In this document: piece by piece, positions 36,574 through 60,107 of the stretch
Numbering within the stretch: position 1 is the stretch's first letter
Layout: every line of letters starts with the position of its first letter
Origin: Clostridia bacterium
GTDB taxonomy: Bacteria > Bacillota > Clostridia > Oscillospirales > QAKW01
Length of the DNA: 63,486 bases
NCBI GenBank assembly: GCA_017436525.1
Contig: JAFSCX010000006.1
Span: forward strand, 1 to 63,486
Direction of reading: 5' to 3'
The notes under the pieces: generated by a model
Seen by the model: only the letters and a program-made list of their open reading frames with translations
Database searches by the model: none
What the model was told of the DNA's origin: nothing
Position numbers and translations under genes: made by a program

Positions 36574-36626
36574 GATACCGTTTATTAAAAAAATGCAGGA
36601 TCACGAAGATCCTGCATTTTTTATCT

Positions 36627-37655: not shown

Positions 37656-37673
37656 CTTTTTTCTCCTTATTAT

Positions 37674-38303: not shown

Positions 38304-38307
38304 TTTC

Positions 38308-39150: not shown

Positions 39151-40238
39151 TTCTTACTCTTCTCCTTTTCCAAAGTATCCCAGACACCCAGCATATACAT
39201 AATGCCCAGCGCCCGATCATAAAGGCCGTAGCCGGGGCGGACCGTGCCGGGGCCTTCGCCCCAAAGGTGCCGGCCGTGATCGGGGCGGATATAGCCTTCA
39301 TAGCCGCAATCGTGGTAGGCACGCAGAATGTCGAGAATTCCGGTATCTCCGTCGCAATCCCGATGGCTTGCCTCGGAGAAATCCCCATTATCAAAATGCT
39401 TTACGTTTCTCACATGAGCAAAGGCGATCCGATCGCAATATTTTCTCACAATCTCAGCCACATTATTCTCCGGATTGGCATTGAGGCTGCCGGAGCAGAG
39501 GGTGAGGCAGTTGCAGGGGTGATCGACCATCTTGAGGAATCTGCCGATGCTCTGCTCATCTACCAGCAGGCGGGGCAGGCCGAAGATATCCCAAGGGGGA
39601 TCATCCATATGGATGGCCATTTTGATATCGCATTCCTCGCAGGTGGGCATGATGGCTTCTAAGAAATATTTCAAATTTGCCCAAAGCTTTTCATGGTCCA
39701 CATCGGCATAGAGCTTAAAAAGCTCATCCAATTTTGCCATCCGCTCCGGCTCCCAGCCGGGGAAGCTCATATTATATTTTTTGGTAAAATCCAGAATATA
39801 TTTTGCCATGGCATTATAATCTTCCTGGATCATTCCTTTTTCATAGAAAAGGGCGGTGGAGCCGTCCCCCACCTCGTGAAAGAGATTGGAGCGGGTCCAA
39901 TCGAAGATGGGCATGAAATTATAGCAGATAACCTTGACACCGAAGGGGGCAAGGTTGCGAATGGTCTGCTTATAATTTTCGATATATTGATCCCGCGTGG
40001 GGAGCCCGATCTTAATATCATCGTGAACATTGACCGATTCCACCACATCCATGTTGAAGCCGTATTCGTCCAGCTGCTTTTTTACCTCGGCGATCTCTTC
40101 GGGTTCCCAAATTTCACCGGGCATTTTGTGGTGCAGGGCCCATACAATGCCGCTCACACCGGGAATCTGCTTGATATCGGAAAGGCGGATTTTATCATTG
40201 CCCTCTCCGTACCAACGAAATGTCATTTGCATCGGCAT
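39147..40238 (-). CDS. uxuA: Mannonate dehydratase
   Basis: MTFRWYG, ICYNFMPIFDWTR, HMDDPPW, RPDHG, PGYGLYDRALG. Confidence 0.95.
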   Translation of the reverse strand: MPMQMTFRWYGEGNDKIRLSDIKQIPGVSGIVWALHHKMPGEIWEPEEIAEVKKQLDEYGFNMDVVESVNVHDDIKIGLPTRDQYIENYKQTIRNLAPFGVKVICYNFMPIFDWTRSNLFHEVGDGSTALFYEKGMIQEDYNAMAKYILDFTKKYNMSFPGWEPERMAKLDELFKLYADVDHEKLWANLKYFLEAIMPTCEECDIKMAIHMDDPPWDIFGLPRLLVDEQSIGRFLKMVDHPCNCLTLCSGSLNANPENNVAEIVRKYCDRIAFAHVRNVKHFDNGDFSEASHRDCDGDTGILDILRAYHDCGYEGYIRPDHGRHLWGEGPGTVRPGYGLYDRALGIMYMLGVWDTLEKEKSKK

Positions 40239-40256
40239 GGTTCATCCTCCGTATTA

Positions 40257-41648
40257 TTATAAATTGAAATAACGCTCTGCATTATAATAGCAAATATCCT
40301 GCGTCAGCCTGCCGAGGGTCTTCTCATCATTGGGATATTCGCCGTTTTCCACCCATTGGCCCAAAAGGTCGCAAAGAATGCGGCGGAAATATTCATGGCG
40401 GGCATAGCTTAAGAAGGAACGGCTGTCGGTCAGCATTCCGATGAAGTTGCCCAAGATGCCAAGATTTGCAAGGGAGATCATCTGCTCCTGCATGCCTGCT
40501 TTATGATCATTAAACCACCAAGCGGAGCCATGCTGAATTTTGCCCGCCACAAGGGAGCTTTGGAAAGCGCCCAGCAGGGTGCCCAGCCATGCATTATCAG
40601 CAGGATTGAGGCTATAGAGCACGGTCTTGGGAAGGGCCTCCTCCTGCTCCCATGCGTTCATCAACCGATGGAGGCTCTCGCAGGAATCGGTAACATTGAT
40701 GCAATCGAAGCCGCTATCTGCGCCAAGGCGCCGGAATTGCTTGGCGTTGGGATTGCGAATACAGCTGAAATGCAGCTGCATTACCCAGCCGAGGCGGCTG
40801 TATTCTCTGCCGCAATGGAGCAGCAGCGCGGTCTGAAAAGCTTCGGCTTCTACGCCGCTTACCGCCTGCCCGCAAAGGCCTTTTGCAAGGGTGGCATCCA
40901 AAACCCGCTCGTCGGCGGTGCGGAAGAGGATCCGATCGAGGCCATGGTCGGCTGCCCTGCAGCCATGGGCATCAAAAAATTCGATTCGCTCGCTGAGCGC
41001 CTTTTTCAAATCGGCAAAGGTTTTGATCTCTCTGCCGCAGGTTGCGGAAAGCTTTTCAATATAAGAAGCAAATCCCTCTTTATGAATATTCAGCGCAGGA
41101 TCGGGGCGGAAGCTGGGCAAAACCTTCACGGGGAAATCGCTTGCTGCCAATTTTTCATGCCAGCAAAGATCGCTGCAGGGATCATCGGTGGTGCCGATCA
41201 TCGCCACATTGCTTTGCAGGATCAGCTTTCTCGCGCTTAAGTCGGCCAACTTTTCATTGCAGAGGTTCCATACTTCTTCGGCGGTCTCGCCGGTTAAGAA
41301 TCCTTCGTAGCCGAAATAATTTTTCAGCTCCAGATGGCACCAATGGACCATGGGGTTTCCGATGGCACGGGGAAGGCTCTCGGCAAATTTTTGAAATTTT
41401 TCACGATCGGGGGCGTCGCCCGTAATGAAGCGTTCCTCCACTCCGTTGGAGCGCATCAGCCGCCATTTATAATGATCGCCGCCCAGCCAGAGCTGAGTGA
41501 TATTTTCAAATTTACGATCCTCCCAAATCTCCTTTGGATCGATATGGCAATGATAGTCGATAATCGGCATCTCCTTGGCATAGTGATGGAAGAGATTGCG
41601 GGCTGTTTCGGTGCTCAGCAGAAAATTTTCATTCAAAAATGATTCCAT
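40257..41648 (-). CDS. uxaC: Uronate isomerase
   Basis: PIIDYHCH, GGDHYKWR, TTDDP, AWWFND, GMLTDSRSFLSYARHEYFRR. Confidence 0.95.
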   Translation of the reverse strand: MESFLNENFLLSTETARNLFHHYAKEMPIIDYHCHIDPKEIWEDRKFENITQLWLGGDHYKWRLMRSNGVEERFITGDAPDREKFQKFAESLPRAIGNPMVHWCHLELKNYFGYEGFLTGETAEEVWNLCNEKLADLSARKLILQSNVAMIGTTDDPCSDLCWHEKLAASDFPVKVLPSFRPDPALNIHKEGFASYIEKLSATCGREIKTFADLKKALSERIEFFDAHGCRAADHGLDRILFRTADERVLDATLAKGLCGQAVSGVEAEAFQTALLLHCGREYSRLGWVMQLHFSCIRNPNAKQFRRLGADSGFDCINVTDSCESLHRLMNAWEQEEALPKTVLYSLNPADNAWLGTLLGAFQSSLVAGKIQHGSAWWFNDHKAGMQEQMISLANLGILGNFIGMLTDSRSFLSYARHEYFRRILCDLLGQWVENGEYPNDEKTLGRLTQDICYYNAERYFNL

Positions 41649-41792
41649 TTTTCCACTCCTTTTCTGAATTACGATCATTATTATAATACAGAATTTTCTT
41701 CAAATCTATTGTATATTATACCCTGTTTGCTTGCAAATTTAAGCATAATAAGAAAGCCCGAGGCAGTCTTTGCCAATCAACTGCTGCGGGCT

Positions 41793-43587: not shown

Positions 43588-43678
43588 GGAAAACCTCTTG
43601 CAAGTTTTGGGAAAATGGATTATAATGAATCTGTCTGTAATATGAAATAACAGAATTTTTTTGGAAGGAGAATCAATC

Positions 43679-44371
43679 ATGAACTACTCACATGAAGTTG
43701 AAAGTATGTGCGTGGTAGCAAAAGGGCCCAAGCATGGTCCCGCCCCCATCCCCGAAGAGGGCAGATGGGTCAAGGCTACCCAGATCAGCGATATCAGCGG
43801 TCTTTCCCATGGTATTGGCTGGTGTGCACCTCAGCAGGGCTGCTGCAAGCTGACCCTGAATGTTAAGAACGGTATCATCGAAGAGGCTCTGGTAGAGACT
43901 CTCGGTTGCTCCGGTATGACCCACTCTGCCGCTATGGCAGCAGAGATTCTGCAGGGCAAGACTCTGCTGGAGGGCCTCAATACCGACTTGGTCTGCGATG
44001 CCATCAACGTTGCAATGAGAGAGATCTTTAAGCAATTGGTCTATGGCCGCACCCAGACCGCTTTCTCCGAAGATGGTCTGCCCATCGGCGCATCTCTGGA
44101 GGATCTTGGTAAGGGCCTGCGCTCTCAGGTTGGTACCATGTTTGCTACCAACGCTAAGGGCGTGCGCTATATGGAGATGGCCGAGGGCTATATCCTGAAG
44201 GTTGCTCTGGATGCCAATAACGAGTGCATCGGTTATCAGTTTGTAAATCTGGGCAAGATGATGGATATGATCCGCAAGGGCGCTGATCCTAAGGATGCTT
44301 TTGAAAAGAATGTGGGTACTTATGGCCGCTTTGATGAGGCTGCTAAGTATATCGATCCCAGAGAAGAATAA
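43679..44371 (+). CDS. NifU/IscU-like protein (GGGtGRT partner)
   Basis: GWCAPQQGCCKLTL, GCSGMTHSAAMA, LVCDAIN Cys spacing. Confidence 0.78.
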   Translation: MNYSHEVESMCVVAKGPKHGPAPIPEEGRWVKATQISDISGLSHGIGWCAPQQGCCKLTLNVKNGIIEEALVETLGCSGMTHSAAMAAEILQGKTLLEGLNTDLVCDAINVAMREIFKQLVYGRTQTAFSEDGLPIGASLEDLGKGLRSQVGTMFATNAKGVRYMEMAEGYILKVALDANNECIGYQFVNLGKMMDMIRKGADPKDAFEKNVGTYGRFDEAAKYIDPREE

Positions 44372-44388
44372 GGAAGGAGGAATATTCA

Positions 44389-45387
44389 ATGGCTACTTTT
44401 GAAGGTTATGAGAGAAGAATCGGAAAGATCCAGCCCGTATTGGAGCAGTATGGCTTCAAGACTCTGGACGAAGCAAATGAATATTGCCTCTCCAAGGGCA
44501 TTGATGTTGCTTCTATCGTAAAGGGTGTTCAGCCTATCGCTTTTGAGAATGCTTGCTGGGCATATACCTTGGGTTGCGCTATCGCACTGAAGAATGATAG
44601 CAAGAGAGCTGCCGATGCAGCAAAGGATATCGGCGTGGGCCTGCAGGCATTCTGCATCCCCGGCTCTGTAGCAGAGACCAGAAGCGTTGGCCTTGGCCAC
44701 GGTAATCTGGCTTCCATGCTGCTGGAGGAAGAGACAAAGTGCTTCTGCTTCTTAGCAGGCCATGAGTCCTTCGCGGCTGCTGAGGGCGCGATCGGTATCG
44801 CTAAGACTGCCAATAAGGTTCGTAAAGAGCCCTTGCAGGTTATCCTCAATGGTCTTGGCAAGGATGCCGCTCAGATCATCTCCAGAATCAATGGCTTCAC
44901 CTTTGTGGAGACCGAGTATGATTTCTATACCAGCGAGCTGAAGATCGTCAGCGAGACTGCTTATTCCGATGGCGAGAAGGCAAAGGTTCGCTGCTATGGT
45001 GCCAACGATGTATTGGAAGGCGTTGCCATCATGAAGCATGAGCATGTAGATGTTTCCATCACCGGTAACTCTACCAACCCCACCCGCTTCCAGCATCCCG
45101 TTGCAGGTACCTATAAGAAATGGGCAATCGAGAACGATAAGAAGTATTTCTCCGTTGCTTCCGGCGGCGGTACCGGCAGAACCCTGCATCCCGATAACAT
45201 GGCTGCAGGCCCTGCTTCCTATGGTCTCACCGATACCATGGGCCGTATGCATGGCGACGCTCAGTTTGCAGGCTCTTCTTCTGTCCCTGCTCACGTTGAG
45301 ATGATGGGCTTGATCGGCGCAGGTAACAACCCCATGGTTGGCATGACCGTAGCCGTGGCAGTAGCTGTATCCGAAGCTTTGAAGTAA
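44389..45387 (+). CDS. GGGtGRT-family protein, function unknown
   Basis: Contains ASGGGTGRTLHPDN. Confidence 0.9.
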   Translation: MATFEGYERRIGKIQPVLEQYGFKTLDEANEYCLSKGIDVASIVKGVQPIAFENACWAYTLGCAIALKNDSKRAADAAKDIGVGLQAFCIPGSVAETRSVGLGHGNLASMLLEEETKCFCFLAGHESFAAAEGAIGIAKTANKVRKEPLQVILNGLGKDAAQIISRINGFTFVETEYDFYTSELKIVSETAYSDGEKAKVRCYGANDVLEGVAIMKHEHVDVSITGNSTNPTRFQHPVAGTYKKWAIENDKKYFSVASGGGTGRTLHPDNMAAGPASYGLTDTMGRMHGDAQFAGSSSVPAHVEMMGLIGAGNNPMVGMTVAVAVAVSEALK

Positions 45388-45486
45388 ACCTTTGAAATGG
45401 GCGATCTTTCCGTTTTTCCTCCCTCGGCGTATCGACATACGCCTTCACTCGGAGAAAACGAAAATCTCATCCCATTTGAAAGGTTT
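45386..45486. repeat. ~100-bp palindromic intergenic element
   Basis: AAACCTTTGAAATGGG ... CCCATTTGAAAGGTTT with central GGCGTAT-CGAC-ATACGCC. Confidence 0.65.
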
Positions 45487-45500
45487 CAGAATCAAGAACA

Positions 45501-45537
45501 TTAAAAAAGGAACTCCCTCGGGAGTTCCTTTTTTAAT
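45501..45537. terminator. Bidirectional intrinsic terminator
   Basis: AAAAAAGGAACTCCC-TC-GGGAGTTCCTTTTTT. Confidence 0.8.
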
Positions 45538-45599
45538 GGTTTTTGATAAAACGATTTACAAAAAGGAATATATGATAAAAATATTACAAAGTGTATGAC

Positions 45600-45858
45600 C
45601 CCTGAAAATGAAATAACCCTTGATCTTGGCACTTTCTCGTCATGCCTTCGATCAAGGGTTATTTCATTGAATTTGCAGGTTCCAAAACGATTCCCTCTCT
45701 TTCTTTCGTATTTCTTTTCAGGCTTATTTCCGTCTTTTCGGCTGCGGCTGTGAACTGAACCTTCCTAAAAATCTATATAAATTTCGAGGGTCTTCCGCAC
45801 TACGGTGCGGCTGTAAAGCGAGCAACCTTTTTAAGCCTTTTAGATCTCTTCTCTTTCT
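45600..45858 (-). ncRNA. Candidate structured RNA with two tandem motif units (unassigned)
   Basis: Promoter TGGACT-17-(TG)TATTCT at 45893-45865; two AAGGTT..TTYACAGCCGCA..CGGAA..RCC units 63 nt apart; 19-bp perfect stem at the 3' end; no credible ORF. Confidence 0.45.
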
Positions 45859-46040
45859 GATTAAAGAATACCATAGAAAATAAAAAAAGTCCATTCGCAG
45901 ATTTTCTAAAATATTTTGCCGAAATTTAGGCAAAGGGGAGAAATTCCAATTGGGGGATTGACGAGAGGAATATTGGTTTGCTATAATAAATATGTTGGGC
46001 GCATGAAGCGCCCCTTATTGTTTTAAGGAGATGATAGCGG

Positions 46041-46319
46041 GTGAATACCTTTCAGAAATTAGATCGGCTGACGGCCCTTGCAAAGGCAGATCCCGAATTG
46101 CGGGAAAAGCTTTTGGCAACCAAAGCGCAGCAAGAGCCGCTGATATCCTTTTGCGCCATCGCCCAAAGCGCGGGAGTGGATCTCTTGGTAGGCGAGCTTT
46201 TTGCAATCGGCATGGAATATTCCGATAATCAATGCAAAAGCACCAACGGCGGTAATCCTTCTCCCTATGAAGCCTTTGATGATGCCTATGAAAATTTTAT
46301 ATCTTCGCTGATGTATTAA
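46041..46319 (+). CDS. Small hypothetical protein with Nif11-like N-terminus
   Basis: AAGGAG RBS, own TTGACG/TG-TATAAT promoter and terminator; AKADPELREKL...AQSAG pattern. Confidence 0.7.
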   Translation: MNTFQKLDRLTALAKADPELREKLLATKAQQEPLISFCAIAQSAGVDLLVGELFAIGMEYSDNQCKSTNGGNPSPYEAFDDAYENFISSLMY

Positions 46320-46397
46320 TAAAGCCGCATTTATCAAATAAATGCGGCTTTTGTTATATAAAAATGCAAAAATTAAACAATAATATATGAAAATAGA

Positions 46398-47168
46398 TCA
46401 CAAAAGATAGCTTGGCATCTCTCTCGGCTTTGGGCTTTGGGACGCTTTTTTCTCGGTCTTTTGGGGAAGATTTTTCTTTTCCAAGTGTTCCTTAGGGGAA
46501 TGGCCGGTGGCTTTCTTAAAGGCGGCAGAAAAATAGGCTTGATTGGAAAATCCGCAAAGGGCGGCCGTCTCGGTTACAGATTTTCCTGCTCTCAAAAATT
46601 GCTTGGCAAGGTCGATTCTTCGATCAATCAAATACTCATGAACGCCGATCCCGATGAGATTGGCAAAGAGCCGCTTCAGAGAAGAGAGGCTGATGTTCAA
46701 ATGATCGGCCAAAGCTTCCAAAGTAGGGCCGTTGGCTATATCTTTTTCTAAATGCCCCATTGCTCTGAAGAAAAGTGAAAGATCACGATGGTTGCTTATT
46801 GGTGAGAGGGGCGCTTCCTTTGCCATTCTCATAATGACCAATTCCGCTAAAGGCTTACATTCTTCCTCGTCAAACCATTCGCAAAAGCGCATAGCCAAAA
46901 GAGGATCAATTTTTGCCGCATATGGAGTGGTGCCGATCTTACCATTGAATTGTAATGCAAGGCAGATGCCATTCTCTTCAAATTGAAAAAGAGAAGAAAA
47001 GGCATGGGGAGGAATCAGCAATCCTTCTCCCGGTTGAAGCTCATAAGCCTCCTCTCCTGCAATGGCGCAAAACCTGCCTTCTTGGCAGATCAGAAATAGA
47101 GAATGATCAAGGAATCTGCCTTCTCTGAAGGAAGAGTATTTTTCTTTTACTATGATTTCGATTTGCAT
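46398..47168 (-). CDS. AraC-family regulator
   Basis: LADHLNISLSSLKRLF, SVTETAALCGFSNQAYFSAAFKKATG. Confidence 0.88.
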   Translation of the reverse strand: MQIEIIVKEKYSSFREGRFLDHSLFLICQEGRFCAIAGEEAYELQPGEGLLIPPHAFSSLFQFEENGICLALQFNGKIGTTPYAAKIDPLLAMRFCEWFDEEECKPLAELVIMRMAKEAPLSPISNHRDLSLFFRAMGHLEKDIANGPTLEALADHLNISLSSLKRLFANLIGIGVHEYLIDRRIDLAKQFLRAGKSVTETAALCGFSNQAYFSAAFKKATGHSPKEHLEKKNLPQKTEKKASQSPKPREMPSYLL

Positions 47169-47261
47169 ATAAATGCACCTTCTTCTTATGAAATATTCGA
47201 AATAAACAGAAGAAATATAAAAAAGGTTCAAATTTATTGTAGCATACTATTTTTGAAATGT

Positions 47262-47307
47262 AAATAGAAAGAGCGTTAAAACTTTCGTTTTAACGCTCTT
47301 TCTATTT
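47262..47307 (-). terminator. Terminator of the microcompartment operon
   Basis: 21-bp stem AAATAGAAAGAGCGTTAAAAC-TTTC-GTTTTAACGCTCTTTCTATTT. Confidence 0.75.
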
Positions 47308-47316
47308 TGTTGATGA

Positions 47317-47964
47317 TTATTTAATAATCTTTACCTTTGCTCCGTTGCCGATTCCTGCAGCATTGGCATCATCGGTATCAATATGCATTTCCAATCGGAA
47401 GGCTTTATGGACCCGCACCTGCACATCATAGAAGGTAGTGCGCCGCTCGCCGTTGGCTTCCACATTCACATAGTCGCCATCCTTCAGGCCGAAGGCTTTT
47501 CCTTCCTCTTCGCTCATATGGATATGGCGGTTGGCAATAATGCATCCTTCCTTTAAGGAGACAACGCCCTTCGGCCCGATAATGGTGATGGGCGCGCTTC
47601 CTGCGATATCACCCGATTCACGAACGGGAGGCTTTACCTTCAGCGTGAAAGAATCGGTACGGGAGATCTCCACTTGAGATGAAGAGCGTACCGGCCCCAA
47701 TACACGGACCCCTTCAATGGGCCGCATGGCAGGGCCCACAATGGTCAATACCTCTTTGCAGGCGTATTGGCCGGGCTGAGAAAGATCTTTGCAAGGGGTC
47801 AGCTGATAGCCTTTGCCGAAAAGGGTTTCCACATCCTGCTGGGAAAGATGAATATGACGGTTGGATACACCGACGGGAACAGTTCCGTTTTGATTAGTAT
47901 CAGCTCCGCACTGAGCCATTACGCGATTTACAATTTCTGCGACTAAACTTGCGTCGTATGCCAT
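47317..47964 (-). CDS. pduL: PduL phosphotransacylase with N-terminal encapsulation peptide
   Basis: VGVSNRHIHL, LSQPGQYA, RVLGPVR, QVEISRTD, RESGD, RHIHM, MHIDTDDANA. Confidence 0.92.
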   Translation of the reverse strand: MAYDASLVAEIVNRVMAQCGADTNQNGTVPVGVSNRHIHLSQQDVETLFGKGYQLTPCKDLSQPGQYACKEVLTIVGPAMRPIEGVRVLGPVRSSSQVEISRTDSFTLKVKPPVRESGDIAGSAPITIIGPKGVVSLKEGCIIANRHIHMSEEEGKAFGLKDGDYVNVEANGERRTTFYDVQVRVHKAFRLEMHIDTDDANAAGIGNGAKVKIIK

Positions 47965-47990
47965 GATGATCCTCCTTTTAAGAGATGATA

Positions 47991-48257
47991 TTAATAAATG
48001 CCGGTACCGCTATCGACAATTCCTACGATTGCGGCATCAATGGGAGCGGTTTCTTTGGCGCATCCGATGCGGGCGGCGCTTCCTTGCGCAACTAAGACAA
48101 TCTCGCCGATTCCTGCGCCCACATTGTCGACAGCGATCAGCCGCTCCTTCGCCCCTGCCATTCCTTCCATAGGCTCAACGATCATCAGCTTGCAGCCGAT
48201 CAGCTTTTCATTTTTTTTGGTGGATACAACGCTTCCGACTACTGATCCGACAATCAT
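47991..48257 (-). CDS. BMC vertex pentamer (EutN/CcmL family)
   Basis: GSVVSTKKNEKL.G.KL, AVDNVGAGIGE, GSAAR, PIDAAIVGIVD. Confidence 0.93.
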   Translation of the reverse strand: MIVGSVVGSVVSTKKNEKLIGCKLMIVEPMEGMAGAKERLIAVDNVGAGIGEIVLVAQGSAARIGCAKETAPIDAAIVGIVDSGTGIY

Positions 48258-48303
48258 TGGCAAAGGCGCTCCTTTCAAAATATTGAACCGATTTCGATAT
48301 AAA

Positions 48304-48372
48304 CGGCTTATTTAAGCTGAAAATATATATTTTCAGCTTAAATAAGCCGAGGGAGCATCACTGCTCCCTCGG
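48304..48372. repeat. Perfect 46-bp palindrome plus adjacent GC-rich hairpin
   Basis: CGGCTTATTTAAGCTGAAAATAT|ATATTTTCAGCTTAAATAAGCCG (48304-48349); CCGAGGGAGCA-TCAC-TGCTCCCTCGG (48347-48372). Confidence 0.9.
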
Positions 48373-48381
48373 TAAGTACTC

Positions 48382-48660
48382 TTATTTCAAAGAGGGCAGG
48401 ATCTTTTCCACATCCTCGTGGGGACGGGGGATCACATGAGTAGCAATCAGCTCGCCCAGACGGGAAGCAGACTGAGAGCCGGCTTCAACAGCAGACTTAA
48501 CAGCGCCTACATCGCCGCGAACCATTACAGATACCAAACCGGAGCCGATCTTCTCGGTGCCGATGAGCTGCACATTGGCTGCTTTTACCATTGCATCTGC
48601 TGCCTCGATAGCGGCAACCAGACCGCGGGTCTCAACCATACCTAATGCTTCAAGTGCCAT
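48382..48660 (-). CDS. BMC shell hexamer (PduA/EutM-like)
   Basis: [26 protein letters not shown] pore motif, RGDVGAV, HVIPRPH. Confidence 0.96.
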
Positions 48661-48725
48661 TTTTCTTTCCTCCTGTATTATTTTCTATTGCCAAGTGATT
48701 AATTTTCACTTCATAGCCTTAAAAA

Positions 48726-49196
48726 TTATTGCTCAAAAACCTTCTTGCCGAAGGCTGCCAGAGCAGTATCCTGCTCTTCGCTGCCGCCGCTGACCCCAAG
48801 GCCGCCGATGATATTTCCAAAGGCATCGCACAGGGGCTCGCCACCGCCGAAGATGACAATTTTGCCCTGATTGGTAAATTGGATTCCGTAGAGAGGCTGG
48901 TTGGGCTGCGCCAAGGGCTTCAGCGCTGCGGTGGACATCTTCAACGCCACGACAGTAAAGGCCTTCTGCACCGCCACATCATAGCTTGCGATATAGGCAT
49001 CGTCCATACATTCCACCAAGATGGGGTGGCCTGCTTGATCAGCAATGGCAACCACTGCCTTGACACCTACTCTTGCTGCCTCTTTTCGGATTTCCTCGCT
49101 TAAAGCCCGCGCCCGCTCTAAGGTGAGAGGGGCAGTGGCTTTTTTAATCTCCTTTGCGACCAGATCGGTCAAAAGGGTTAAGCGTTCGTTATCCAT
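48726..49196 (-). CDS. GlcG/HbpS-family heme-binding protein (PduO C-terminal-like)
   Basis: MDDAYIASYDVAVQKAFT, FGGGEPL, IGGLGVSGGSEEQD. Confidence 0.88.
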   Translation of the reverse strand: MDNERLTLLTDLVAKEIKKATAPLTLERARALSEEIRKEAARVGVKAVVAIADQAGHPILVECMDDAYIASYDVAVQKAFTVVALKMSTAALKPLAQPNQPLYGIQFTNQGKIVIFGGGEPLCDAFGNIIGGLGVSGGSEEQDTALAAFGKKVFEQ

Positions 49197-49200
49197 GGGT

Positions 49201-49992
49201 TTATTTCCCGAGCTGCTCCACTACGCGGCGGGTGATTTCAGCGACCAGATCCTGATCTGCACCATGATTGCAATTACCGCCGCAACCATGGCAGGAGGGT
49301 TTGCCGCTCTGAACATTGGGGCAAAGATCAGCGGGATGTTTGCCCTTCATGCCAAACTGACGGCGAATCTCATAAAGGCGCTGAACCTGAGCCTCGTTGA
49401 GCTCCTGAGGACCGCCCAGCTGCTTGGAGATGTAGAGCAGATTTGCATAGAATTCAACAGACTCCATTTTGTGATAAGCTGCCAGCAGATTGTCGGCATA
49501 AGAGAGAGCGCCGTGATTCTCCAGCAATACTGCATCAAAGGACTGCAGATACTTGGATACTGCGTTGGGGATCTCCTCGGTAGAGGGAGTGCCGTATTCA
49601 GCGATGGGTACACAGCCTAAGGTGATAACAGCCTCGGGCATGATGGGCTGGGTCAGAGGAATGCCTGCGATGGCAAAGCCGGTAGCATACATGGGATGAG
49701 CATGTACGACAGCGTTTACATCGGGGCGCTCCTTATAAACCCGCATATGCATTTTGATCTCGGAAGAGGGCTTGAAATTGCCGTTGGCTTGAATGACATT
49801 GCCGTCCCGATCTACTTTGCAGATATACTCGGGGGTCATGAAGCCTTTGCTCACGCCGGTGGGGGTGCAGAGGAATTCATTGTCGCTGATCTTTACAGAG
49901 ATGTTACCGTCGTTGGCAGCAACCATACCCCGGTTGTAGATCCGCTTACCGATTTCGCAGATTTCTTTTTTGATGGCATATTCGTTTACCAT
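49201..49992 (-). CDS. Class II aldolase (fuculose-1-phosphate aldolase-like) with C-terminal encapsulation peptide
   Basis: AANDGNIS, TPTGVSKG, PSSE..MH, VVHAHP, LENHG; tail DLVAEITRRVVEQL. Confidence 0.88.
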   Translation of the reverse strand: MVNEYAIKKEICEIGKRIYNRGMVAANDGNISVKISDNEFLCTPTGVSKGFMTPEYICKVDRDGNVIQANGNFKPSSEIKMHMRVYKERPDVNAVVHAHPMYATGFAIAGIPLTQPIMPEAVITLGCVPIAEYGTPSTEEIPNAVSKYLQSFDAVLLENHGALSYADNLLAAYHKMESVEFYANLLYISKQLGGPQELNEAQVQRLYEIRRQFGMKGKHPADLCPNVQSGKPSCHGCGGNCNHGADQDLVAEITRRVVEQLGK

Positions 49993-50017
49993 TTTTATTG
50001 TCTCCTTCGCTTAAAAA

Positions 50018-50084
50018 TAGTTTGTTTTTGTTTGTTTTGATTTGATTATGCTTTGATTTTACCATAGAATCGCGGGAAAGTCAA
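50018..50084 (-). promoter_or_regulatory. sigmaA promoter of the BMC operon with downstream CAAA direct-repeat tract
   Basis: TTGACT (50084-50079)-17-(TG)TAAAAT (50061-50056), followed by ATCAAATCAAAACAAACAAAAACAAAC. Confidence 0.65.
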
Positions 50085-50131
50085 CATTAAAATCTGTTTT
50101 TATCTTTATTTTTGCGAATTTTTTTGGTTTT

Positions 50132-51007
50132 TTATTTTTTTGAAGGGTTGATTTCATTCCAAAGAGTGAAGCCGAGGATCAAAAGACCGCCAATGATTTG
50201 AGGGAGGCTCAGCGGCTCTCCCAGCAAGGTTACCGAAAGGAGGACCGCTACCAGCGGATCAATATAGCTGAGAATGGCGGCTTTTTGGCCGCTCAGATCC
50301 TTGAGAGAAGTGAAATAGAGGCAATAGGTAACGCCGGTGTGCAGAAGACCTACAATCAAAAGGCAGACCCAACCTGCGCGGTTCAAGGCACCCAGAGGAA
50401 CTCCGCCCGAGAAGCCCACATAAGGGAGCAGGACAAGAATGGCGGCAAGGAATTGCAAAAAGGTACGCTGAAGGCCGCCGACCGTCTTAATAAATTTATT
50501 GAGCAGAATGACGGTGGCATAGAGGCAGGCGGCGCCGAGCCCAAAGAGGATGCCGAGGAAATGGTTGCTGCCGGCAGAAAGGGGGCCGATGCCGGTGATC
50601 AGTAGAATCCCCAGCGTCGACATCCCAAAGCAGATCCATTGCTTGGCCCCCATTTTCTCCTTGAATAATAAAGGGCAGGCAAGGGTTACCAGGACGGGGG
50701 CGAAATAATAAGTAAGGGTTGCCACCGATACGGTGGTATATTTATAAGCCTCAAAAAGCAAAATCCAATTAAACCCCATGGCCGCGCCGGATAAAAGCAA
50801 GAGGGGCAGCTCTTTTTTTATGGTAGAGAGGGAAAGCTTTTCTTTTTTCAAAAAAAGAAAAAGACCGATCATGGCAGCTGCCAGCAACGCGCGGCAGAGG
50901 GCAAGGGCACCGGAGGGGAGCGCAATCAGGCGGACAAAGGGCCCCAGTGTGCCAAACATGATCATGGAAAAGATCAGCATCCAGCGGGAATCAAAATGAC
51001 GTTTCAT
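50132..51007 (-). CDS. EamA/DMT-family transporter
   Basis: ~10 TMs; FEAYKYTTVSVAT, AILSYIDPLVA. Confidence 0.9.
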   Translation of the reverse strand: MKRHFDSRWMLIFSMIMFGTLGPFVRLIALPSGALALCRALLAAAMIGLFLFLKKEKLSLSTIKKELPLLLLSGAAMGFNWILLFEAYKYTTVSVATLTYYFAPVLVTLACPLLFKEKMGAKQWICFGMSTLGILLITGIGPLSAGSNHFLGILFGLGAACLYATVILLNKFIKTVGGLQRTFLQFLAAILVLLPYVGFSGGVPLGALNRAGWVCLLIVGLLHTGVTYCLYFTSLKDLSGQKAAILSYIDPLVAVLLSVTLLGEPLSLPQIIGGLLILGFTLWNEINPSKK

Positions 51008-51146
51008 AAAAATAAAACCTTTCTCAATGTTGGTTTTATTATAAATGAATAAATGGAGCTGCGTCAAGAAAAAAGAAATTTAAGATGACAAAGCGGTGCA
51101 AGCGCGGTATAATAAAATAAACTATAATATTAAAGGAAGAAAAGAA

Positions 51147-51677
51147 ATGAATTTTTCTCAAATTGCAACGGGGCGGCAATCCTGCCGCAATTTTGAAAAA
51201 GATCGGCCCATTGAGAAGGAAAAGCTTTCTGCAATTTTGGAAGCGGGGCGGCTCGCGCCTTCTGCTTGCAACGGCCAACCCTATCATTTCACTATGTGTA
51301 TCGGGGAGTCGGCAAAAGCGGTCGCGAAAGCAACGCAGGGGATGGGGATGAATCATTTTACAGACGATGCGGCAGCGATGCTGGTCCTCTCCGAGAAGCC
51401 CTATTGCCGCTCTGCGGGGGTAGGGGCAAAATTGAAAAAGAATGACTATCGCTCCATTGATATCGGGATTGCAGCTGCCTATCTCACCGCTGAAGCGCAG
51501 GCGCAGGGCGTGGCCTCTTGCATCTTGGGTTGGCTGGATGATAGCAAGCTGCGAAAGATTTGCGGGCTGGATGGTGCGGCGCGGCTGGTCATCGCTTTGG
51601 GCTATGCCAAGGAGGGAGATCCCTTGCGCAAAAAGAAGCGGAAAAGCGCAGATGAATTGATTACTTGGAAGGAATGA
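51147..51677 (+). CDS. Nitroreductase-family protein
   Basis: RQSCRNF, GRLAPSACNGQP, DIGIAA, GVASCILG, IALGY. Confidence 0.9.
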   Translation: MNFSQIATGRQSCRNFEKDRPIEKEKLSAILEAGRLAPSACNGQPYHFTMCIGESAKAVAKATQGMGMNHFTDDAAAMLVLSEKPYCRSAGVGAKLKKNDYRSIDIGIAAAYLTAEAQAQGVASCILGWLDDSKLRKICGLDGAARLVIALGYAKEGDPLRKKKRKSADELITWKE

Positions 51678-56089: not shown

Positions 56090-56255
56090 GATTTTCGCTC
56101 CTTTTGGTTTCGTTCTTTCTATTTTACCATATCTTTCCCGATTACACAATGAATTTTCAGTAAAATTTATGTAAATAAAGGGATTGAAAATCGTTAAAAA
56201 TAATGGTAAAATATTGTTTGGTAAAAAATAAATTCATATAAAGGAGATCAATGTT

Positions 56256-57464
56256 ATGGCTTACAACAAAAAGACGGTTGACGATATCAACGTCAAAGGT
56301 AAAAAAGTGCTGGTCCGTTGCGACTTCAACGTGCCTTTGAAAAACGGTGTCATCACCGATGAGAACCGTATCAATGCGGCCCTCCCCACCATTAAGAAAT
56401 TGATTGCCGATGGCGGCAGAGTAATCCTTTGCTCCCATATGGGCAAGCCCAAGGGCGAGCCTAAGCCTGAGCTGAGCTTGGCTCCCGTAGCTGCCCGCCT
56501 TTCCGAGAAGCTGGGTCAGGAAGTGGTCTTTGCTGCTGATGATAATGTAGTCGGCGAGAATGCAAAGGCTGCTGTTGCTGCCATGAAGGATGGGGATGTT
56601 GTCCTGCTGCAGAACACCCGTTATCGCAAGGAAGAGACCAAGAACGGTGAAGAGCTCTCCGCAGAGCTTGGTTCTTTGGCTGAGATCTTTGTCAATGATG
56701 CTTTCGGTACTGCTCACCGCGCTCATTGCTCCACTGTCGGCGTAGTAAGCCATGTGAAGGAAGCAGTTGCCGGCTATCTGATTGGTAAAGAGCTGCAATA
56801 TCTGGGCAATGCAGTAGATGCGCCCGAGCGTCCTTTCGTAACCATTCTGGGCGGCGCAAAGGTTGCTGATAAGCTGACTGTGATCGAGAACCTTCTCAAG
56901 AAGGCCGATACCCTCATCATCGGCGGCGGTATGGCTTATACCTTCTTGGCCGCTAAGGGCTATTCTGTCGGAAAATCCCTGCTGGATGAGACCAAGATTG
57001 ATTACTGCAAGGATATGATGAAGCAGGCTGAGGAGAAGGGCGTGAAGATTCTTCTGCCCGTAGATTGCACCGTAGTTAAGAATTTCCCCGATCCCATCGA
57101 TGCTGAGATTGAGGTTGCTGTTGTAGATGCAGATAAGATCCCTGCCGATGTGGAAAGCTTGGATATCGGGCCCAAGACTGCCGCTCTCTATGCAGAGGCT
57201 GTAAAGTCTGCCAAGACCGTTGTATGGAATGGTCCTATGGGCGTATTTGAGAATCCCACCCTTGCAAAGGGCACCTTGGCTGTTGCGAAGGCGATGGCTG
57301 AGACCGATGCGGTTACCGTCATCGGCGGCGGCGACAGTGCGGCTGCTGTCAATACCTTGGGCTTCGGTGATCAGATGACCCATATCTCCACCGGCGGCGG
57401 CGCATCCCTCGAGTTTTTGGAAGGTAAAGAACTGCCCGGTATCGCTGCTCTGAACAATAAATAA
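56256..57464 (+). CDS. pgk: Phosphoglycerate kinase
   Basis: [41 protein letters not shown]. Confidence 0.98.
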
Positions 57465-57536
57465 AAAAATAAGAACGGAACGGCGAAATGAATCTCCGTT
57501 CCGCTCTTTCATATCTAAATTAAGGAGAAAAAGAAA

Positions 57537-58289
57537 ATGAGAAAGTATGTAATTGCAGGTAACTGGAAGATGAACAATACCCCCGCCGAGGCTGCTGCTC
57601 TGATCGAGGAGATGAAGCCTTTGGTAGCAGATGCAAAGTGCGATGTTGTCCTTTGCGTTCCTTTTGTGGATATCGCCGCTTCCGTTGAGGCGGCTAAGGG
57701 CTCCAATATTAAGATTGGTGCGGAGAATGTCCATTTCAAAGCCAGCGGTGCTTATACCGGTGAGATCTCTGCCGAGATGCTGACCGCTTGCGGTGTAGAG
57801 TATGTAGTAATCGGCCATAGCGAGCGCCGCCAATATTTCGGTGAGACTGATCAGACAGTCAACCTTCGCACTCTGGCTGCTCTGAACGCAGGCCTCAAAG
57901 CCATCGTATGCGTAGGCGAGACCTTGGAGCAAAGAGAGCTTGGCTATACCGAGACCCTTTTGAAATATCAGACCAAGATGGCGCTGACCAATGTAACCGA
58001 GGAGCAGCTGAAGAATGTGATCATCGCTTATGAGCCTGTATGGGCCATCGGCACCGGCGTTACCGCTACCGACGATCAGGCAGATGAAGGCAACGGCTTT
58101 GTCCGCGCTGCAGTGGCCGAGATGTTTGGCGAGAAGGCTGCTGAGGAGATCACGGTTCAATACGGCGGTTCTATGAACGCCAAGAATGCAGAAGGCCTCT
58201 TGGCCAAGCCCAATGTTGATGGCGGCTTGATCGGCGGCGCTTCTTTGAAGGCCGAGGATTTCTCTGTAGTAGTTCATGGAGTTAAGTAA
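57537..58289 (+). CDS. tpiA: Triosephosphate isomerase
   Basis: AGNWKMN, GHSERR, AYEPVWAIGTG, YGGS, LIGGASL. Confidence 0.98.
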   Translation: MRKYVIAGNWKMNNTPAEAAALIEEMKPLVADAKCDVVLCVPFVDIAASVEAAKGSNIKIGAENVHFKASGAYTGEISAEMLTACGVEYVVIGHSERRQYFGETDQTVNLRTLAALNAGLKAIVCVGETLEQRELGYTETLLKYQTKMALTNVTEEQLKNVIIAYEPVWAIGTGVTATDDQADEGNGFVRAAVAEMFGEKAAEEITVQYGGSMNAKNAEGLLAKPNVDGGLIGGASLKAEDFSVVVHGVK

Positions 58290-58290
58290 G

Positions 58291-60009: not shown

Positions 60010-60107
60010 TATAAATAGGAAGATATGAAAGGGGGGTGGCCGTTATGAAAAATAGATTGGTTTAGAGAATTGGTTTGAATTCAAATAGAATAAAGGAGGT
60101 TATAAAA

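What the first reader, a model, noticed from the sequence alone, without database searches (positions are those of the whole stretch)
47262..50084. Self-contained five-gene minimal bacterial microcompartment operon
Seen: own promoter, then aldolase, GlcG/HbpS heme protein, one BMC-H, one BMC-P, PduL and a terminator. All three non-shell proteins have terminal amphipathic helices typical of encapsulation peptides (DLVAEITRRVVEQL; LTLLTDLVAKEIKK; SLVAEIVNRVMAQ). Known: metabolosomes normally encode an aldehyde dehydrogenase and usually an alcohol dehydrogenase, several shell paralogues and, for fucose/rhamnose GRM loci, a glycyl-radical enzyme. None is in this operon or window. Inference: either a streamlined new BMC type in which an encapsulated heme protein handles the aldolase product, or the core of a split or eroding deoxy-sugar BMC. 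A GH78 gene lies ~13 kb away.
Basis: partly seen in the sequence, partly recalled or inferred. Interest (0 to 1): 0.75.

Follow-up and report, generated by a model that had tools for sequence, protein, structure and literature searches.

The report
Stripped-down fucose/rhamnose microcompartment operon
A gut-type Clostridia genome carries an intact five-gene leftover of a much larger sugar-degrading protein-organelle gene cluster, which shows how such organelles shrink but is probably not a new kind of organelle.

Summary
On the minus strand, 50084..47262, lie a promoter-like site, a class II aldolase, a DUF336/GlcG-like protein, one BMC-H, one BMC-P, PduL and a strong terminator hairpin. The 63-kb window has no other shell gene, AldDH, ADH or glycyl-radical enzyme.

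It is not a new organelle type. The 80 closest aldolase loci in species-representative genomes are mostly GRM5 fucose/rhamnose loci. These hold the same five genes in the same order, with Zn-ADH, extra shell genes, PduS, BMC-T, DeoR and AldDH between them and the GRE upstream. None of the 80 has the five-gene layout. L004 and L013 are partly reduced and AraC-linked.

All three encapsulation-peptide-like termini and the aldolase–DUF336 pairing are inherited from GRM5. The DUF336 protein lacks the PduO heme-ligand histidine.

The five genes show no decay.

Best reading: a reduced GRM5-derived locus that still builds a small aldolase compartment and probably relies on an AldDH encoded elsewhere. 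The rest of the genome could not be examined.

The parts
50056..50084 (-). Promoter-like site: TTGACT, 17-nt spacer, TAAAAT, with TG before the -10 hexamer.
   Evidence: 10 of 12 matches; sequence read. This is a consensus match only and its function was not tested.
49201..49992 (-). Class II aldolase, 263 aa. It is the orthologue of the GRM5 fuculose/rhamnulose-1-phosphate aldolase.
   Evidence: PF00596 E=3.6e-51. Best solved relative is L-fuculose-phosphate aldolase 4c24, 4.7e-28. It is 79-88% identical to the aldolases of 80 mostly GRM5 loci. E78, H97, H99 and H160 are invariant in alignment A1; their catalytic role in FucA is recalled, not taken from a call. No NCBIfam equivalog cut-off is reached.
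49204..49347 (-). Aldolase C-terminal extension (residues 216-263): a Cys/His-rich linker followed by an amphipathic encapsulation-peptide-like helix, DLVAEITRRVVEQLGK.
   Evidence: It lies outside the PDB-matched core and is conserved in the related loci. The motif C-x(6-12)-C[HN]xC occurs in 79 of 80 tails. Its hydrophobic moment is in the top 0.8%. A C-terminal EP on BMC aldolases is reported in PMC4594438 (passages).
48726..49196 (-). DUF336/GlcG/HbpS-like protein, 156 aa, with an N-terminal extension of about 20 residues (49196..49137) resembling an encapsulation peptide.
   Evidence: PF03928 E=5.1e-33, residues 24-148. Best solved relatives are OrfY 2a2l (1.4e-27), EfgA 6bws/6c0z (2.6e-22) and PduO-C 5cx7 (8e-21). 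The N-terminal extension is conserved in orthologues of GRM5 loci. K78, S136 and D143 are invariant. Arg30 stands at the position of the PduO-C heme ligand His18.
48382..48660 (-). BMC-H, a PduA/EutM-like hexamer protein of 92 aa. It is the only hexamer gene in the window.
   Evidence: PF00936 E=4.7e-31. PduA 3ngk scores 1.3e-36. It is 98% identical to the single BMC-H of L004 and 96% to the last BMC-H before BMC-P in L001. It deviates at 0 of 69 highly conserved columns.
48304..48372 (-). Two adjacent hairpins between BMC-H and BMC-P, read as an attenuator or RNA stabiliser.
   Evidence: I4; -46.4 kcal/mol, z = -10.4. A stable hairpin at this position is found in relatives: 37 of 39 BMC-H/BMC-P spacers fold at -15 kcal/mol or lower. 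It is therefore inherited and not a deletion scar.
47991..48257 (-). BMC-P, an EutN/PduN/CcmL-type pentamer protein of 88 aa counted from ATG 48257. The ORF list gives a TTG start at 48278.
   Evidence: PF03319 E=2.4e-29. Solved pentamer 4i7a scores 6.7e-17, aligned from residue 1. An RBS, AAAGGAG, lies upstream.
47317..47964 (-). PduL-type phosphotransacylase, 215 aa, with an N-terminal encapsulation-peptide-like extension (residues 1-28, 47964..47881).
   Evidence: PF06130 E=1.2e-79. NF011652 scores 274 bits, above the cut-off of 209. PduL 5cuo scores 1.4e-49, matched from residue 29. The N-terminus MAYDxxLVAEIVNRVMAQ is conserved in relatives. It deviates at 0 of 67 conserved columns.
47262..47307 (-). 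Terminator hairpin after PduL, with perfect 21-bp arms.
   Evidence: I6; -29.4 kcal/mol, z = -11.5. The scan scored it as terminator-like on the + strand. The U-rich 3' side on the - strand was read.
46398..47168 (-). AraC-family regulator, 256 aa from ATG 47168, with its own promoter-like site at 47264..47236. It is the probable regulator of the operon (inferred).
   Evidence: HTH_18 E=2e-21; promoter-like site. An identical 256-aa protein is in the database (P0121). Full-length relatives of 31-36% identity lie downstream of PduL in L004 and L013. The subfamily is small, 12 clusters at E<=1e-20.

Best explanation
The operon is a reduced descendant of the GRM5 locus, the glycyl-radical-enzyme fucose/rhamnose microcompartment of Clostridia. 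In catalogue terms it is a 'GRM5-like/PVM-like' core.

Compared with its relatives it has lost:
- the GRE, its activase, an extra BMC gene and PduV upstream;
- the Zn-ADH (lactaldehyde reductase) and the extra BMC-H paralogues between the DUF336 gene and the last BMC-H;
- PduS, BMC-T, DeoR, acetate kinase where present, and AldDH between BMC-P and PduL.

What remains is intact and under constraint.

Most likely mechanism (inferred):
1. An AraC-type regulator switches on the operon.
2. The PduA-like hexamer and the single pentamer build a small closed shell.
3. The aldolase, the DUF336 protein and PduL enter through their inherited amphipathic terminal peptides.
4. Inside, the aldolase cleaves L-fuculose-1-P or L-rhamnulose-1-P to DHAP and L-lactaldehyde.
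5. PduL's only known role is to recycle CoA behind an acylating AldDH in the lumen. Its retention, with its targeting peptide, suggests that an encapsulated AldDH is supplied from another locus (a split locus). That would give a PVM-like route: lactaldehyde to lactyl-CoA to lactyl-phosphate.
6. The DUF336 protein is an inherited accessory that probably binds a small molecule, possibly the aldehyde. It is not a heme enzyme.

Shown here: the gene content, the descent from GRM5-type loci, the intactness of the genes, and the inherited targeting peptides.
Inferred: shell formation, the substrate, the AldDH encoded elsewhere, and the role of DUF336.
For: Descent from GRM5:
- 593 relatives of the aldolase were confirmed in species-representative genomes, and the best 80 (79-88% identity) were kept.
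- tblastn maps and Pfam scans show the common layout GRE, activase, BMC, PduV, ALD, DUF336, Zn-ADH, several BMC-H, BMC-P, PduS, BMC-T, DeoR, (AckA), AldDH, PduL.
- Of 44 loci held for at least 10 kb downstream of the aldolase start: 42 have AldDH, 42 Zn-ADH, 43 PduS, 43 BMC-T, 42 DeoR and 43 PduL. 42 of the 44 have three to six BMC-H-type genes.
- Of 56 loci held for at least 4.5 kb upstream, 45 have GRE or activase.
- The window's genes keep the ancestral order.
- In the aldolase tree (81 rows) and the four-protein tree (33 rows), the window sits inside the group of Acutalibacteraceae-type, mostly GRM5 loci.

Graded reductions exist in relatives:
- L013: ALD, DUF336, 3 BMC-H, BMC-P, AckA, AldDH, PduL, an unknown gene, AraC.
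- L004: ALD, DUF336, BMC-H, BMC-P, PduS, BMC-T, AckA, PduL, AraC. It has no AldDH, ADH or GRE.
- L034: an EP-bearing aldolase alone among housekeeping genes.
- The DUF336-to-BMC-H adjacency is seen only in L004 and L013 among loci with a DUF336 hit (2 of 71), as well as in the window.

Intactness:
- Deviations at columns conserved in at least 95% of relatives: ALD 1 of 171, DUF336 0 of 42, BMC-H 0 of 69, BMC-P 1 of 34, PduL 0 of 67.
- 13 of the window's 116 substitutions fall in columns conserved at 85% or more. That ratio, 0.112, ranks 14th of 53; the median is 0.084.
- dN is 0.025-0.29 with saturated dS, and dN/dS is at most 0.16 wherever it could be computed.
- No gene fragments of the missing enzymes were found in the window.
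- Promoter, RBSs, the inherited hairpin after BMC-H and the terminator are all in place.

Targeting peptides are inherited: and PMC4594438 (passages).

Precedent for a core enzyme encoded apart from the main locus: the AldDH of ACI loci lies on a satellite locus (PMC8217296, passages).

Function of GRM5: PMC6325248 (passages) and PMC3557285 (search listing and start of abstract only).
Against: - The rest of the genome could not be examined, so no AldDH or other partner encoded elsewhere has been seen.
- None of the 80 related loci has this exact layout, so recurrence is not shown.
- Only one locus (L004) clearly lacks AldDH while keeping PduL.
- Other fragments exist (L034, L039). These fit simple decay as well as they fit a stable reduced form.
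- Synonymous sites are saturated against every available relative, so a recent loss of function would leave no trace in these tests.
- The window's end branch is longer than the median: 0.31 against 0.17 in the four-protein tree.
- Native BMC loci rarely lack a BMC-T: 27 of 30 locus types encode one (PMC4207490, passages).
- All 57 GRM5 loci surveyed in PMC6325248 have PduS and PduT.
- Shell formation, the substrate and encapsulation were not tested.
Confidence: 0.5

Rival explanations
1. Non-functional remnant. Deletions removed most of a GRM5 or PVM-like locus recently, and the five remaining genes are on their way to loss or are expressed to no purpose.
For: The core enzymes AldDH and ADH and the signature GRE are absent from the window. 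None of the 80 related loci shares the layout. Relatives show assorted fragments: L034 is an orphan aldolase and L039 has the aldolase directly followed by BMC-H genes. PduL has no known substrate without an AldDH. dS is saturated against all available relatives, so recent relaxation cannot be detected.
Against: All five ORFs are full length and keep 381 of 383 highly conserved positions. The share of substitutions falling in conserved columns is ordinary, rank 14 of 53. Gene spacing is compact with RBSs, and the promoter-like site, the inherited hairpin and the terminator are kept. No pseudogene debris was found. A protein identical to the neighbouring AraC was seen on 9 contigs, so the organism has been assembled repeatedly. 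The gene order on those contigs was not seen.
Confidence: 0.2
2. Self-sufficient minimal metabolosome. One hexamer, one pentamer, the aldolase, DUF336 and PduL form a complete organelle that needs no AldDH, for example to confine lactaldehyde production. PduL and/or DUF336 would then have a role not yet described.
For: The genes are intact and carry targeting peptides on all three cargo proteins. L004 also lacks AldDH while keeping intact PduL and AckA, with the two genes overlapping. The AU tests do not reject a common origin of the window with L004 (p = 0.161) or with L004 and L013 (p = 0.176). If the origin were shared, the reduced state would be old, given that dS is saturated. That hexamer-plus-pentamer pairs can close small shells in recombinant systems is recalled knowledge and comes from no call.
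Against: No chemistry is known that links a class II aldolase to PduL without an acylating AldDH. The trees do not support a clade of AldDH-less loci either: L004 pairs with L013, which has AldDH (SH-aLRT 87). There is only one other example. Nothing in the locus can recycle NAD+.
Confidence: 0.15
3. True satellite locus. A complete BMC locus (GRM, PDU or PVM-like) elsewhere in the genome is the main locus, and this operon only adds an aldolase module and spare shell proteins.
For: Satellite loci holding shell genes together with enzymes are described in PMC8217296 (passages). About 20% of BMC-bearing genomes have two loci (same passages). The missing enzymes must come from somewhere if PduL is in use.
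Against: The locus encodes both BMC-H and BMC-P. It therefore fails the Axen 2014 satellite criterion (one shell type only) and meets the 'main locus' criterion of Sutter 2021. No genome supplied two of the 80 related loci: all 80 contigs have different assembly prefixes. However, those are species-representative draft assemblies (nearly all titled MAG), and only aldolase-bearing loci would have been seen.
Confidence: 0.1
4. One reading: an encapsulated heme protein (GlcG/HbpS-like) oxidises or otherwise handles the aldolase product in place of AldDH.
For: The protein belongs to PF03928, named 'haem-degrading'. It has a targeting-peptide-like N-terminus. PduO-C binds heme (PMC4923194, passages).
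Against: The PduO-C heme ligand His18 aligns with Arg30, and heme-pocket Arg22 with Glu34. None of 31 orthologues has histidine at that column. HbpS is only a weak match, E=1e-5, against 1e-27 for OrfY. The same gene follows the aldolase in 70 of 80 loci, most of which also have AldDH and Zn-ADH. No catalytic activity on aldehydes is reported for the family in the passages read.
Confidence: 0.03

Closest known systems
GRM5, the glycyl-radical-enzyme fucose/rhamnose microcompartment of Clostridia (for example C. phytofermentans, Roseburia inulinivorans).
   Same: The aldolase (up to 88% identity), DUF336, PduA-like BMC-H (96-98%), BMC-P and PduL are orthologous and in the same order. The targeting peptides are the same, and so is the hairpin after the last BMC-H.
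   Different: The window has no GRE, activase, PduV, Zn-ADH, PduS, BMC-T, DeoR or AldDH. It has two shell genes where relatives have six or more, and an AraC regulator instead of DeoR.
PVM-like loci (Axen 2014; Sutter 2021; Asija 2021): aldolase-signature loci of Firmicutes, suggested to be fragments of GRM5.
   Same: A class II aldolase with a C-terminal EP is the only signature enzyme, there is no GRE, the host is a Firmicute, and the locus is GRM5-like in synteny. L013 fits this type.
   Different: PVM-like loci are described as having an AldDH and mostly a DeoR regulator. The window has neither.
Locus L004 (an Acutalibacteraceae MAG; contig JAZUQH010000038.1).
   Same: ALD, DUF336, a single BMC-H, BMC-P ... 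PduL, AraC. It has no GRE, Zn-ADH, DeoR or AldDH. The ALD-DUF336-BMC-H stretch aligns with the window as one 1701-bp match at 73% identity.
   Different: L004 keeps PduS, BMC-T and acetate kinase. Its genomic flanks differ. The AraC proteins are only 31% identical.
PVM, the Planctomycetes/Verrucomicrobia fucose/rhamnose BMC.
   Same: The signature aldolase is homologous. The proposed route, lactaldehyde to lactyl-CoA to lactyl-phosphate, is the one that would apply here if an AldDH is supplied.
   Different: [quoted passage not shown]
ACI loci of Acidobacteria.
   Same: They have an aldolase with a C-terminal EP, and their AldDH is consistently encoded on a separate satellite locus. This is a precedent for a split core.
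   Different: They are an unrelated lineage with a BMC-P triplet and a hydroxyacid dehydrogenase. The satellite AldDH has been seen there but not here.
DUF336 proteins OrfY (2a2l), EfgA (6bws/6c0z) and PduO-C (5cx7).
   Same: The fold family is the same, with E values of 1e-27 to 1e-21. The EfgA ligand-pocket residues K57, S114 and D121 correspond to K78, S136 and D143, which are invariant in the BMC orthologues. These genes are linked to aldehyde-forming pathways.
   Different: The window's protein has an N-terminal targeting-peptide-like extension and lacks the PduO-C heme ligand. No ligand has been tested.

Membership tests
Bacterial microcompartment 'main locus' (Sutter 2021) | At least one BMC-H (PF00936) and one BMC-P (PF03319) among contiguous genes. 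| tested here: met
   PF00936 E=4.7e-31 and PF03319 E=2.4e-29, with the two genes about 100 bp apart. The definition was read.
Satellite locus (Axen 2014) | Only one kind of shell protein (PF00936 or PF03319, not both). | tested here: not met
   Both kinds are present. The definition was read.
Satellite locus (Axen 2014) | [quoted passage not shown] | not testable with these tools
   Only the 63-kb window is available, and it holds no other shell gene.
GRM5 | A glycyl radical enzyme (PF02901 and PF01228) with its activase (PF04055) in the locus. | tested here: not met
   None in the window by Pfam or by tblastn with the L001 GRE and activase. Present in 45 of 56 related loci held far enough upstream.
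GRM5 | A fuculose-phosphate-type class II aldolase (PF00596) with a C-terminal encapsulation peptide. | tested here: met
   The enzyme's substrate was not tested.
GRM5 | A Zn-ADH lactaldehyde reductase (PF00107/PF08240). | tested here: not met
   Absent from the window. Present in 42 of 44 relatives.
GRM5 | PduS and PduT homologues (57 of 57 GRM5 loci in PMC6325248). | tested here: not met
   tblastn with PduS hits only the RnfC paralogue at 9291-10481, and BMC-T hits only the BMC-H gene.
PVM-like | A class II aldolase as signature enzyme, no GRE, mostly Firmicutes. | tested here: met
   The window has Clostridia housekeeping genes, including the spoIIIA operon and rnf.
PVM-like | An acylating aldehyde dehydrogenase (PF00171) in the locus. 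| tested here: not met
   No PF00171 in the window. tblastn with the L001 AldDH gives only chance-level hits, E>=0.2.
Metabolosome core (Axen 2014) | AldDH, alcohol dehydrogenase and phosphotransacylase. | tested here: not met
   Only the phosphotransacylase PduL is present.
PduL phosphotransacylase | PF06130 over its full length, and the NCBIfam cut-off reached. | tested here: met
   PF06130 positions 1-175 of 176, E=1.2e-79. NF011652 scores 274 bits against a cut-off of 209. 5cuo scores 1.4e-49.
Encapsulation peptides | A short amphipathic helix at a terminus, set off from the catalytic core by a linker and confined to BMC-associated homologues. | tested here: inconclusive
   The extensions lie outside the matched cores and are conserved in BMC-locus orthologues. 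Hydrophobic moments rank in the top 0.8%, 7.5% and 11.6%. Helix prediction and shell binding could not be run. Non-BMC homologues were compared only through solved structures.
Heme-binding DUF336 (PduO-C type) | The heme-coordinating histidine (His18 of PduO-C). | tested here: not met
   His18 aligns with Arg30. No histidine occupies that column in 31 orthologues.

The most novel reading that the evidence does not exclude
The operon, together with L004, may represent a stable, AraC-regulated lineage of natural minimal metabolosomes. One hexamer and one pentamer would package only an aldehyde-forming aldolase, a small-molecule-binding DUF336 protein and PduL, and the lineage would be kept by selection without any locus-encoded AldDH. 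This could work through an AldDH recruited from another locus by its own peptide, or through chemistry not yet described. It would be the smallest native cargo-loaded BMC system known to me (that ranking is recalled, not tested). It would also be a natural experiment on which parts of a metabolosome are dispensable.
Probability: 0.15. Interest if true: 0.65.

Novelty: new variant of a known kind. Interest (0 to 1): 0.35.

Why it matters
If the operon works, it is a ready-made five-gene natural BMC: two shell genes and three cargo proteins with native targeting peptides. That would be useful as a minimal chassis and for asking which metabolosome parts are essential.

With L013, L004, L034 and L039 it also gives a graded series of how GRM5 loci shrink in gut and rumen Clostridia. 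This bears on how locus catalogues should treat 'PVM-like/GRM5-like' and incomplete loci.

The constant pairing of the aldolase with an EP-bearing DUF336 protein that lacks the heme ligand but keeps the EfgA pocket residues points to a testable role for this long-unexplained BMC accessory protein.

If the operon is merely a remnant, it is ordinary.

Tried and rejected
- **Remnants of the missing genes.** tblastn of 13 GRM5, L004 and L013 proteins against the window at E<=10 found none. There were only paralogue hits (PduS to RnfC, BMC-T to the BMC-H gene) and chance-level hits.
- **Mobile-element signs.** No flanking repeats that would suggest an insertion. No Rfam family reached its gathering score in 45300-51300. 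The region's GC content is unremarkable.
- **Common origin with L004 and L013.** The aldolase tree is unresolved around the window. In the four-protein tree the window sits in an unresolved 16-row group. AU tests neither reject nor show a clade with L004+L013 (p = 0.176) or with L004 alone (p = 0.161). One script call gave no answer and was repeated.
- **AraC as a marker of the reduced lineage.**
  - The window's AraC is only 31-33% identical to those of L004 and L013, within a small subfamily.
  - Two AraC clusters share their 'longest contig' length with two close BMC-P clusters: 15354 bp for P0128 and P0135, and 18113 bp for P0126 and P0139.
  - One AraC cluster (P0129, 19884 bp) matches the contig length of the full GRM5 locus L023.
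  - Equal lengths are a hint of linkage, not proof, and do not show gene order.
- **Recurrence of the exact layout.** It could not be shown. 
- **Zarzycki 2015 (PMC4644659).** It is not held, so its treatment of GRM5 DUF336 and its peptides was not seen.
- **Sutter 2021 supplements.**
  - Only the files readable here were searched.
  - They show a 'GRM5like' type and GRM-specific HMMs for PF03928 and the aldolase.
  - The PDFs and the two large archives could not be read. If the locus diagrams (Supplementary Data 2) are among them, an identical layout may already be drawn there.
- **Literature searches.** The searches found no paper describing this five-gene layout.

Full report
**What is there**

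The region 47262-50084 holds five intact minus-strand ORFs:
- a class II aldolase, 49992..49201, 263 aa, PF00596 E=3.6e-51;
- a DUF336/GlcG/HbpS-like protein, 49196..48726, 156 aa, PF03928 E=5.1e-33;
- one BMC-H, 48660..48382, 92 aa;
- one BMC-P, probably starting at ATG 48257, ending at 47991;
- PduL, 47964..47317, 215 aa, which reaches the NCBIfam cut-off (274 bits against 209).

The BMC-H is PduA-like (3ngk, 1.3e-36). The BMC-P aligns with solved pentamers from residue 1.

Signals:
- A promoter-like site, TTGACT-17-TAAAAT, lies at 50084..50056.
- A perfect 21-bp-arm hairpin follows PduL, at -29.4 kcal/mol and z = -11.5.
- Two strong hairpins lie between BMC-H and BMC-P, at -46.4 kcal/mol and z = -10.4.
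- An AraC-family gene with its own promoter-like site follows on the same strand. An EamA transporter gene precedes the operon.

The rest of the window is Clostridia housekeeping (spoIIIA operon, rnf, secA, enolase), a uronate-catabolism cluster and a GH78 gene at 32072-34222. It holds no AldDH, ADH, GRE, activase or further shell gene.

**Where it comes from**

The aldolase belongs to a very large, highly conserved family. All 7986 scored candidates passed E<=0.001, and the best 120 are all at least 80% identical.

A scan of species-representative genomes confirmed 593 relatives, and the best 80 (79-88% identity) were kept. They are mostly Acutalibacteraceae, Oscillospiraceae and unclassified Clostridia MAGs, with some Lachnospiraceae.

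Mapping the window's proteins and the neighbours of L001, L004 and L013 onto all 80 loci shows that most are GRM5 loci. Their layout is GRE, activase, BMC, PduV, aldolase, DUF336, Zn-ADH, several BMC-H, BMC-P, PduS, BMC-T, DeoR, (AckA), AldDH, PduL.

Counts:
- Of the 56 loci held at least 4.5 kb upstream of the aldolase, 45 have GRE or activase.
- Four of the 11 without it share a layout in which the GRE lies beyond DeoR, so it may simply be cut off.
- Of the 44 loci held at least 10 kb downstream: 42 have AldDH, 42 Zn-ADH, 43 PduS, 43 BMC-T, 42 DeoR, 43 PduL, 44 BMC-P and 39 DUF336.
- L069 lacks AldDH and PduL only because the held stretch ends at DeoR.
- 42 of the 44 have three to six BMC-H-type genes.

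The window's five genes are therefore the GRM5 genes in GRM5 order with everything between and upstream removed. None of the 80 loci has exactly this layout.

**Relatives that are partly reduced**

- L013 has aldolase, DUF336, three BMC-H, BMC-P, AckA, AldDH, PduL, an unknown 499-aa gene and AraC. This is a PVM-like make-up.
- L004 has aldolase, DUF336, one BMC-H (98% identical to the window's), BMC-P, PduS, BMC-T, AckA, PduL and AraC. It has no GRE, Zn-ADH, DeoR or AldDH.
- Among the 71 loci with a DUF336 hit, only these two have it directly followed by a BMC-H, as in the window.
- The window aligns with L004 in one 1701-bp match across aldolase, DUF336 and BMC-H.
- L034 has the EP-bearing aldolase alone among housekeeping genes. 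L039 has the aldolase followed directly by BMC-H genes.

The aldolase tree and a four-protein tree place the window inside the group of mostly GRM5 loci but do not resolve its nearest kin. L004 and L013 pair with SH-aLRT 87. AU tests neither reject nor establish a clade of the window with L004+L013 (p = 0.176) or with L004 alone (p = 0.161).

The three AraC proteins align over their full length at 31-36% identity, against 25% for the window's other AraC. They belong to a small subfamily of 12 clusters at E<=1e-20.

[quoted passage not shown] Sutter 2021's supplementary files carry a 'GRM5like' type.

**Is it decaying?**

No sign of decay was found.
- At columns conserved in at least 95% of relatives, the window deviates at 1 of 171 (aldolase), 0 of 42 (DUF336), 0 of 69 (BMC-H), 1 of 34 (BMC-P, R21K) and 0 of 67 (PduL) positions.
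- 13 of its 116 substitutions fall in columns conserved at 85% or more. The ratio, 0.112, ranks 14th of 53; the median is 0.084.
- dN is 0.025-0.29 while dS is saturated, and dN/dS is at most 0.16 where it could be computed.
- The aldolase keeps E78, H97, H99 and H160, which are invariant in alignment A1. Their role as catalytic Glu and Zn-binding His residues in FucA is recalled.
- No fragments of the lost genes remain.
- The hairpin after BMC-H is an inherited feature: 37 of 39 relatives have a stable fold at that spacer.

The limit of these tests is that every available relative is so distant (dS saturated) that a recent loss of function could not be detected.

**The encapsulation peptides**

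The three peptides are real extensions outside the cores matched by Pfam and by solved structures. They are conserved in the orthologues of GRM5 loci.
- The aldolase C-terminal peptide and the N-terminal peptide of phosphotransacylases are described in PMC4594438 (passages).
- The DUF336 N-terminal extension is not covered in the passages read from that paper. It states that no other BMC proteins were known to carry such peptides.
- Hydrophobic moments rank in the top 0.8%, 7.5% and 11.6%.

The peptides are inherited. They are not evidence for a new design.

**The DUF336 protein**

Its best solved relatives are K. pneumoniae OrfY (1.4e-27), the formaldehyde sensor EfgA (2.6e-22) and PduO-C (8e-21). 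HbpS is a weak match at 1e-5.

- The heme ligand His18 of PduO-C aligns with Arg30, and heme-pocket Arg22 with Glu34.
- None of 31 orthologues has histidine at that column.
- The EfgA pocket residues K57, S114 and D121 correspond to K78, S136 and D143, which are invariant in the 31 orthologues.
- That paper reports these residues as widely conserved in the family, so their conservation here is not specific.

The gene follows the aldolase in 70 of 80 loci. I read it as an inherited accessory protein that binds a small molecule, possibly the aldehyde (inference). It is not a heme enzyme replacing AldDH.

**How it most likely works**

1. The AraC regulator induces the operon.
2. The hairpins after BMC-H may raise hexamer output relative to the downstream genes.
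3. The hexamer and pentamer form a small shell. The aldolase, DUF336 and PduL are packaged through their peptides.
4. The aldolase cleaves fuculose-1-P or rhamnulose-1-P to DHAP and lactaldehyde. This function is inferred from GRM5 (and listing and start of abstract only) and from the FucA match.

PduL's known role is CoA recycling behind an acylating AldDH. Its intact state, with its peptide, suggests an AldDH encoded elsewhere, as is the rule in ACI loci.

The rivals are a dead remnant, a truly self-sufficient minimal BMC, and a satellite of a complete locus elsewhere. Only the rest of the genome can separate these.

**Verdict**

This is a new, extreme variant of a known kind: a GRM5-derived, PVM-like or GRM5-like locus. 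It is of moderate interest.

The tools for structure and complex prediction and for cluster membership were unavailable. As a result, the recurrence of the layout and the existence of partners encoded elsewhere stayed unchecked.

Noticed in passing
window 49255-49347 (aldolase residues about 216-246); the same region in L001-L080: The 'linker' between the aldolase core and its encapsulation peptide carries a conserved Cys/His motif, C-x(6-12)-C[HN]xC (here CPNVQSGKPSCHGCGGNC). It is found in 79 of 80 related aldolases. PMC4594438 describes aldolase linkers as lacking sequence conservation. The motif could be a metal or Fe-S site.
   Followed up: partly
window 48304-48372; BMC-H/BMC-P spacers of 39 related loci: A stable G+C-rich hairpin directly after the last (major) BMC-H gene is conserved: 37 of 39 spacers fold at -15 kcal/mol or lower. 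In the window there are two adjacent hairpins. They may act as an attenuator or RNA stabiliser that sets the hexamer-to-pentamer ratio.
   Followed up: partly
window 46398-47168; L004:15808-16695; L013:9311-10129; P0122-P0132: The AraC regulator belongs to a small, divergent subfamily of 12 clusters at E<=1e-20. The nine members printed and the window's own protein all end in a lysine-rich tail followed by (D/E)MP(S/N)YLL. In the loci held, its members lie next to PduL.
   Followed up: partly
L034:9953-10804: An aldolase that keeps its C-terminal encapsulation peptide stands alone among housekeeping genes. A helicase and an exo/endonuclease-phosphatase lie upstream; a PP-loop protein, an Fe-hydrogenase and HrcA lie downstream. 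No shell gene lies within the 15.6 kb held.
   Followed up: partly
L004:13897-15740: In L004 the acetate kinase and PduL ORFs overlap (13897-15087 and 15081-15740) at the place where relatives have AldDH. This is a clean excision with the flanking genes intact.
   Followed up: no
window 43661-45387: A NifU-like protein (weak match) is followed by a GGGtGRT-family protein (PF14057, E=1.5e-194) on the + strand. A small Nif11-like ORF lies at 46041-46319. The function of this pair is unknown.
   Followed up: no
window 31503-41678: This stretch holds GH78 alpha-L-rhamnosidase with an RpiB/LacAB-like gene, a second AraC and a GDSL esterase, followed by a uronate pathway cluster (UxaC, UxuA, an SDR, KDPG aldolase, PfkB kinase). 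No rhamnose isomerase or kinase is in the window.
   Followed up: no
window 56157-58346 and 60075-63166: A 729-aa ORF and three ORFs of 289-367 aa have no Pfam or NCBIfam match. The second group lies where GC falls to 0.37 and may be foreign DNA.
   Followed up: no
window 45607-45668: A perfect 19-nt inverted repeat with a 24-nt spacer lies in a stretch of about 600 bp without convincing ORFs, between the GGGtGRT gene and the Nif11-like ORF (I8). Its only Rfam hit is a sub-threshold microRNA model, taken as chance.
   Followed up: no
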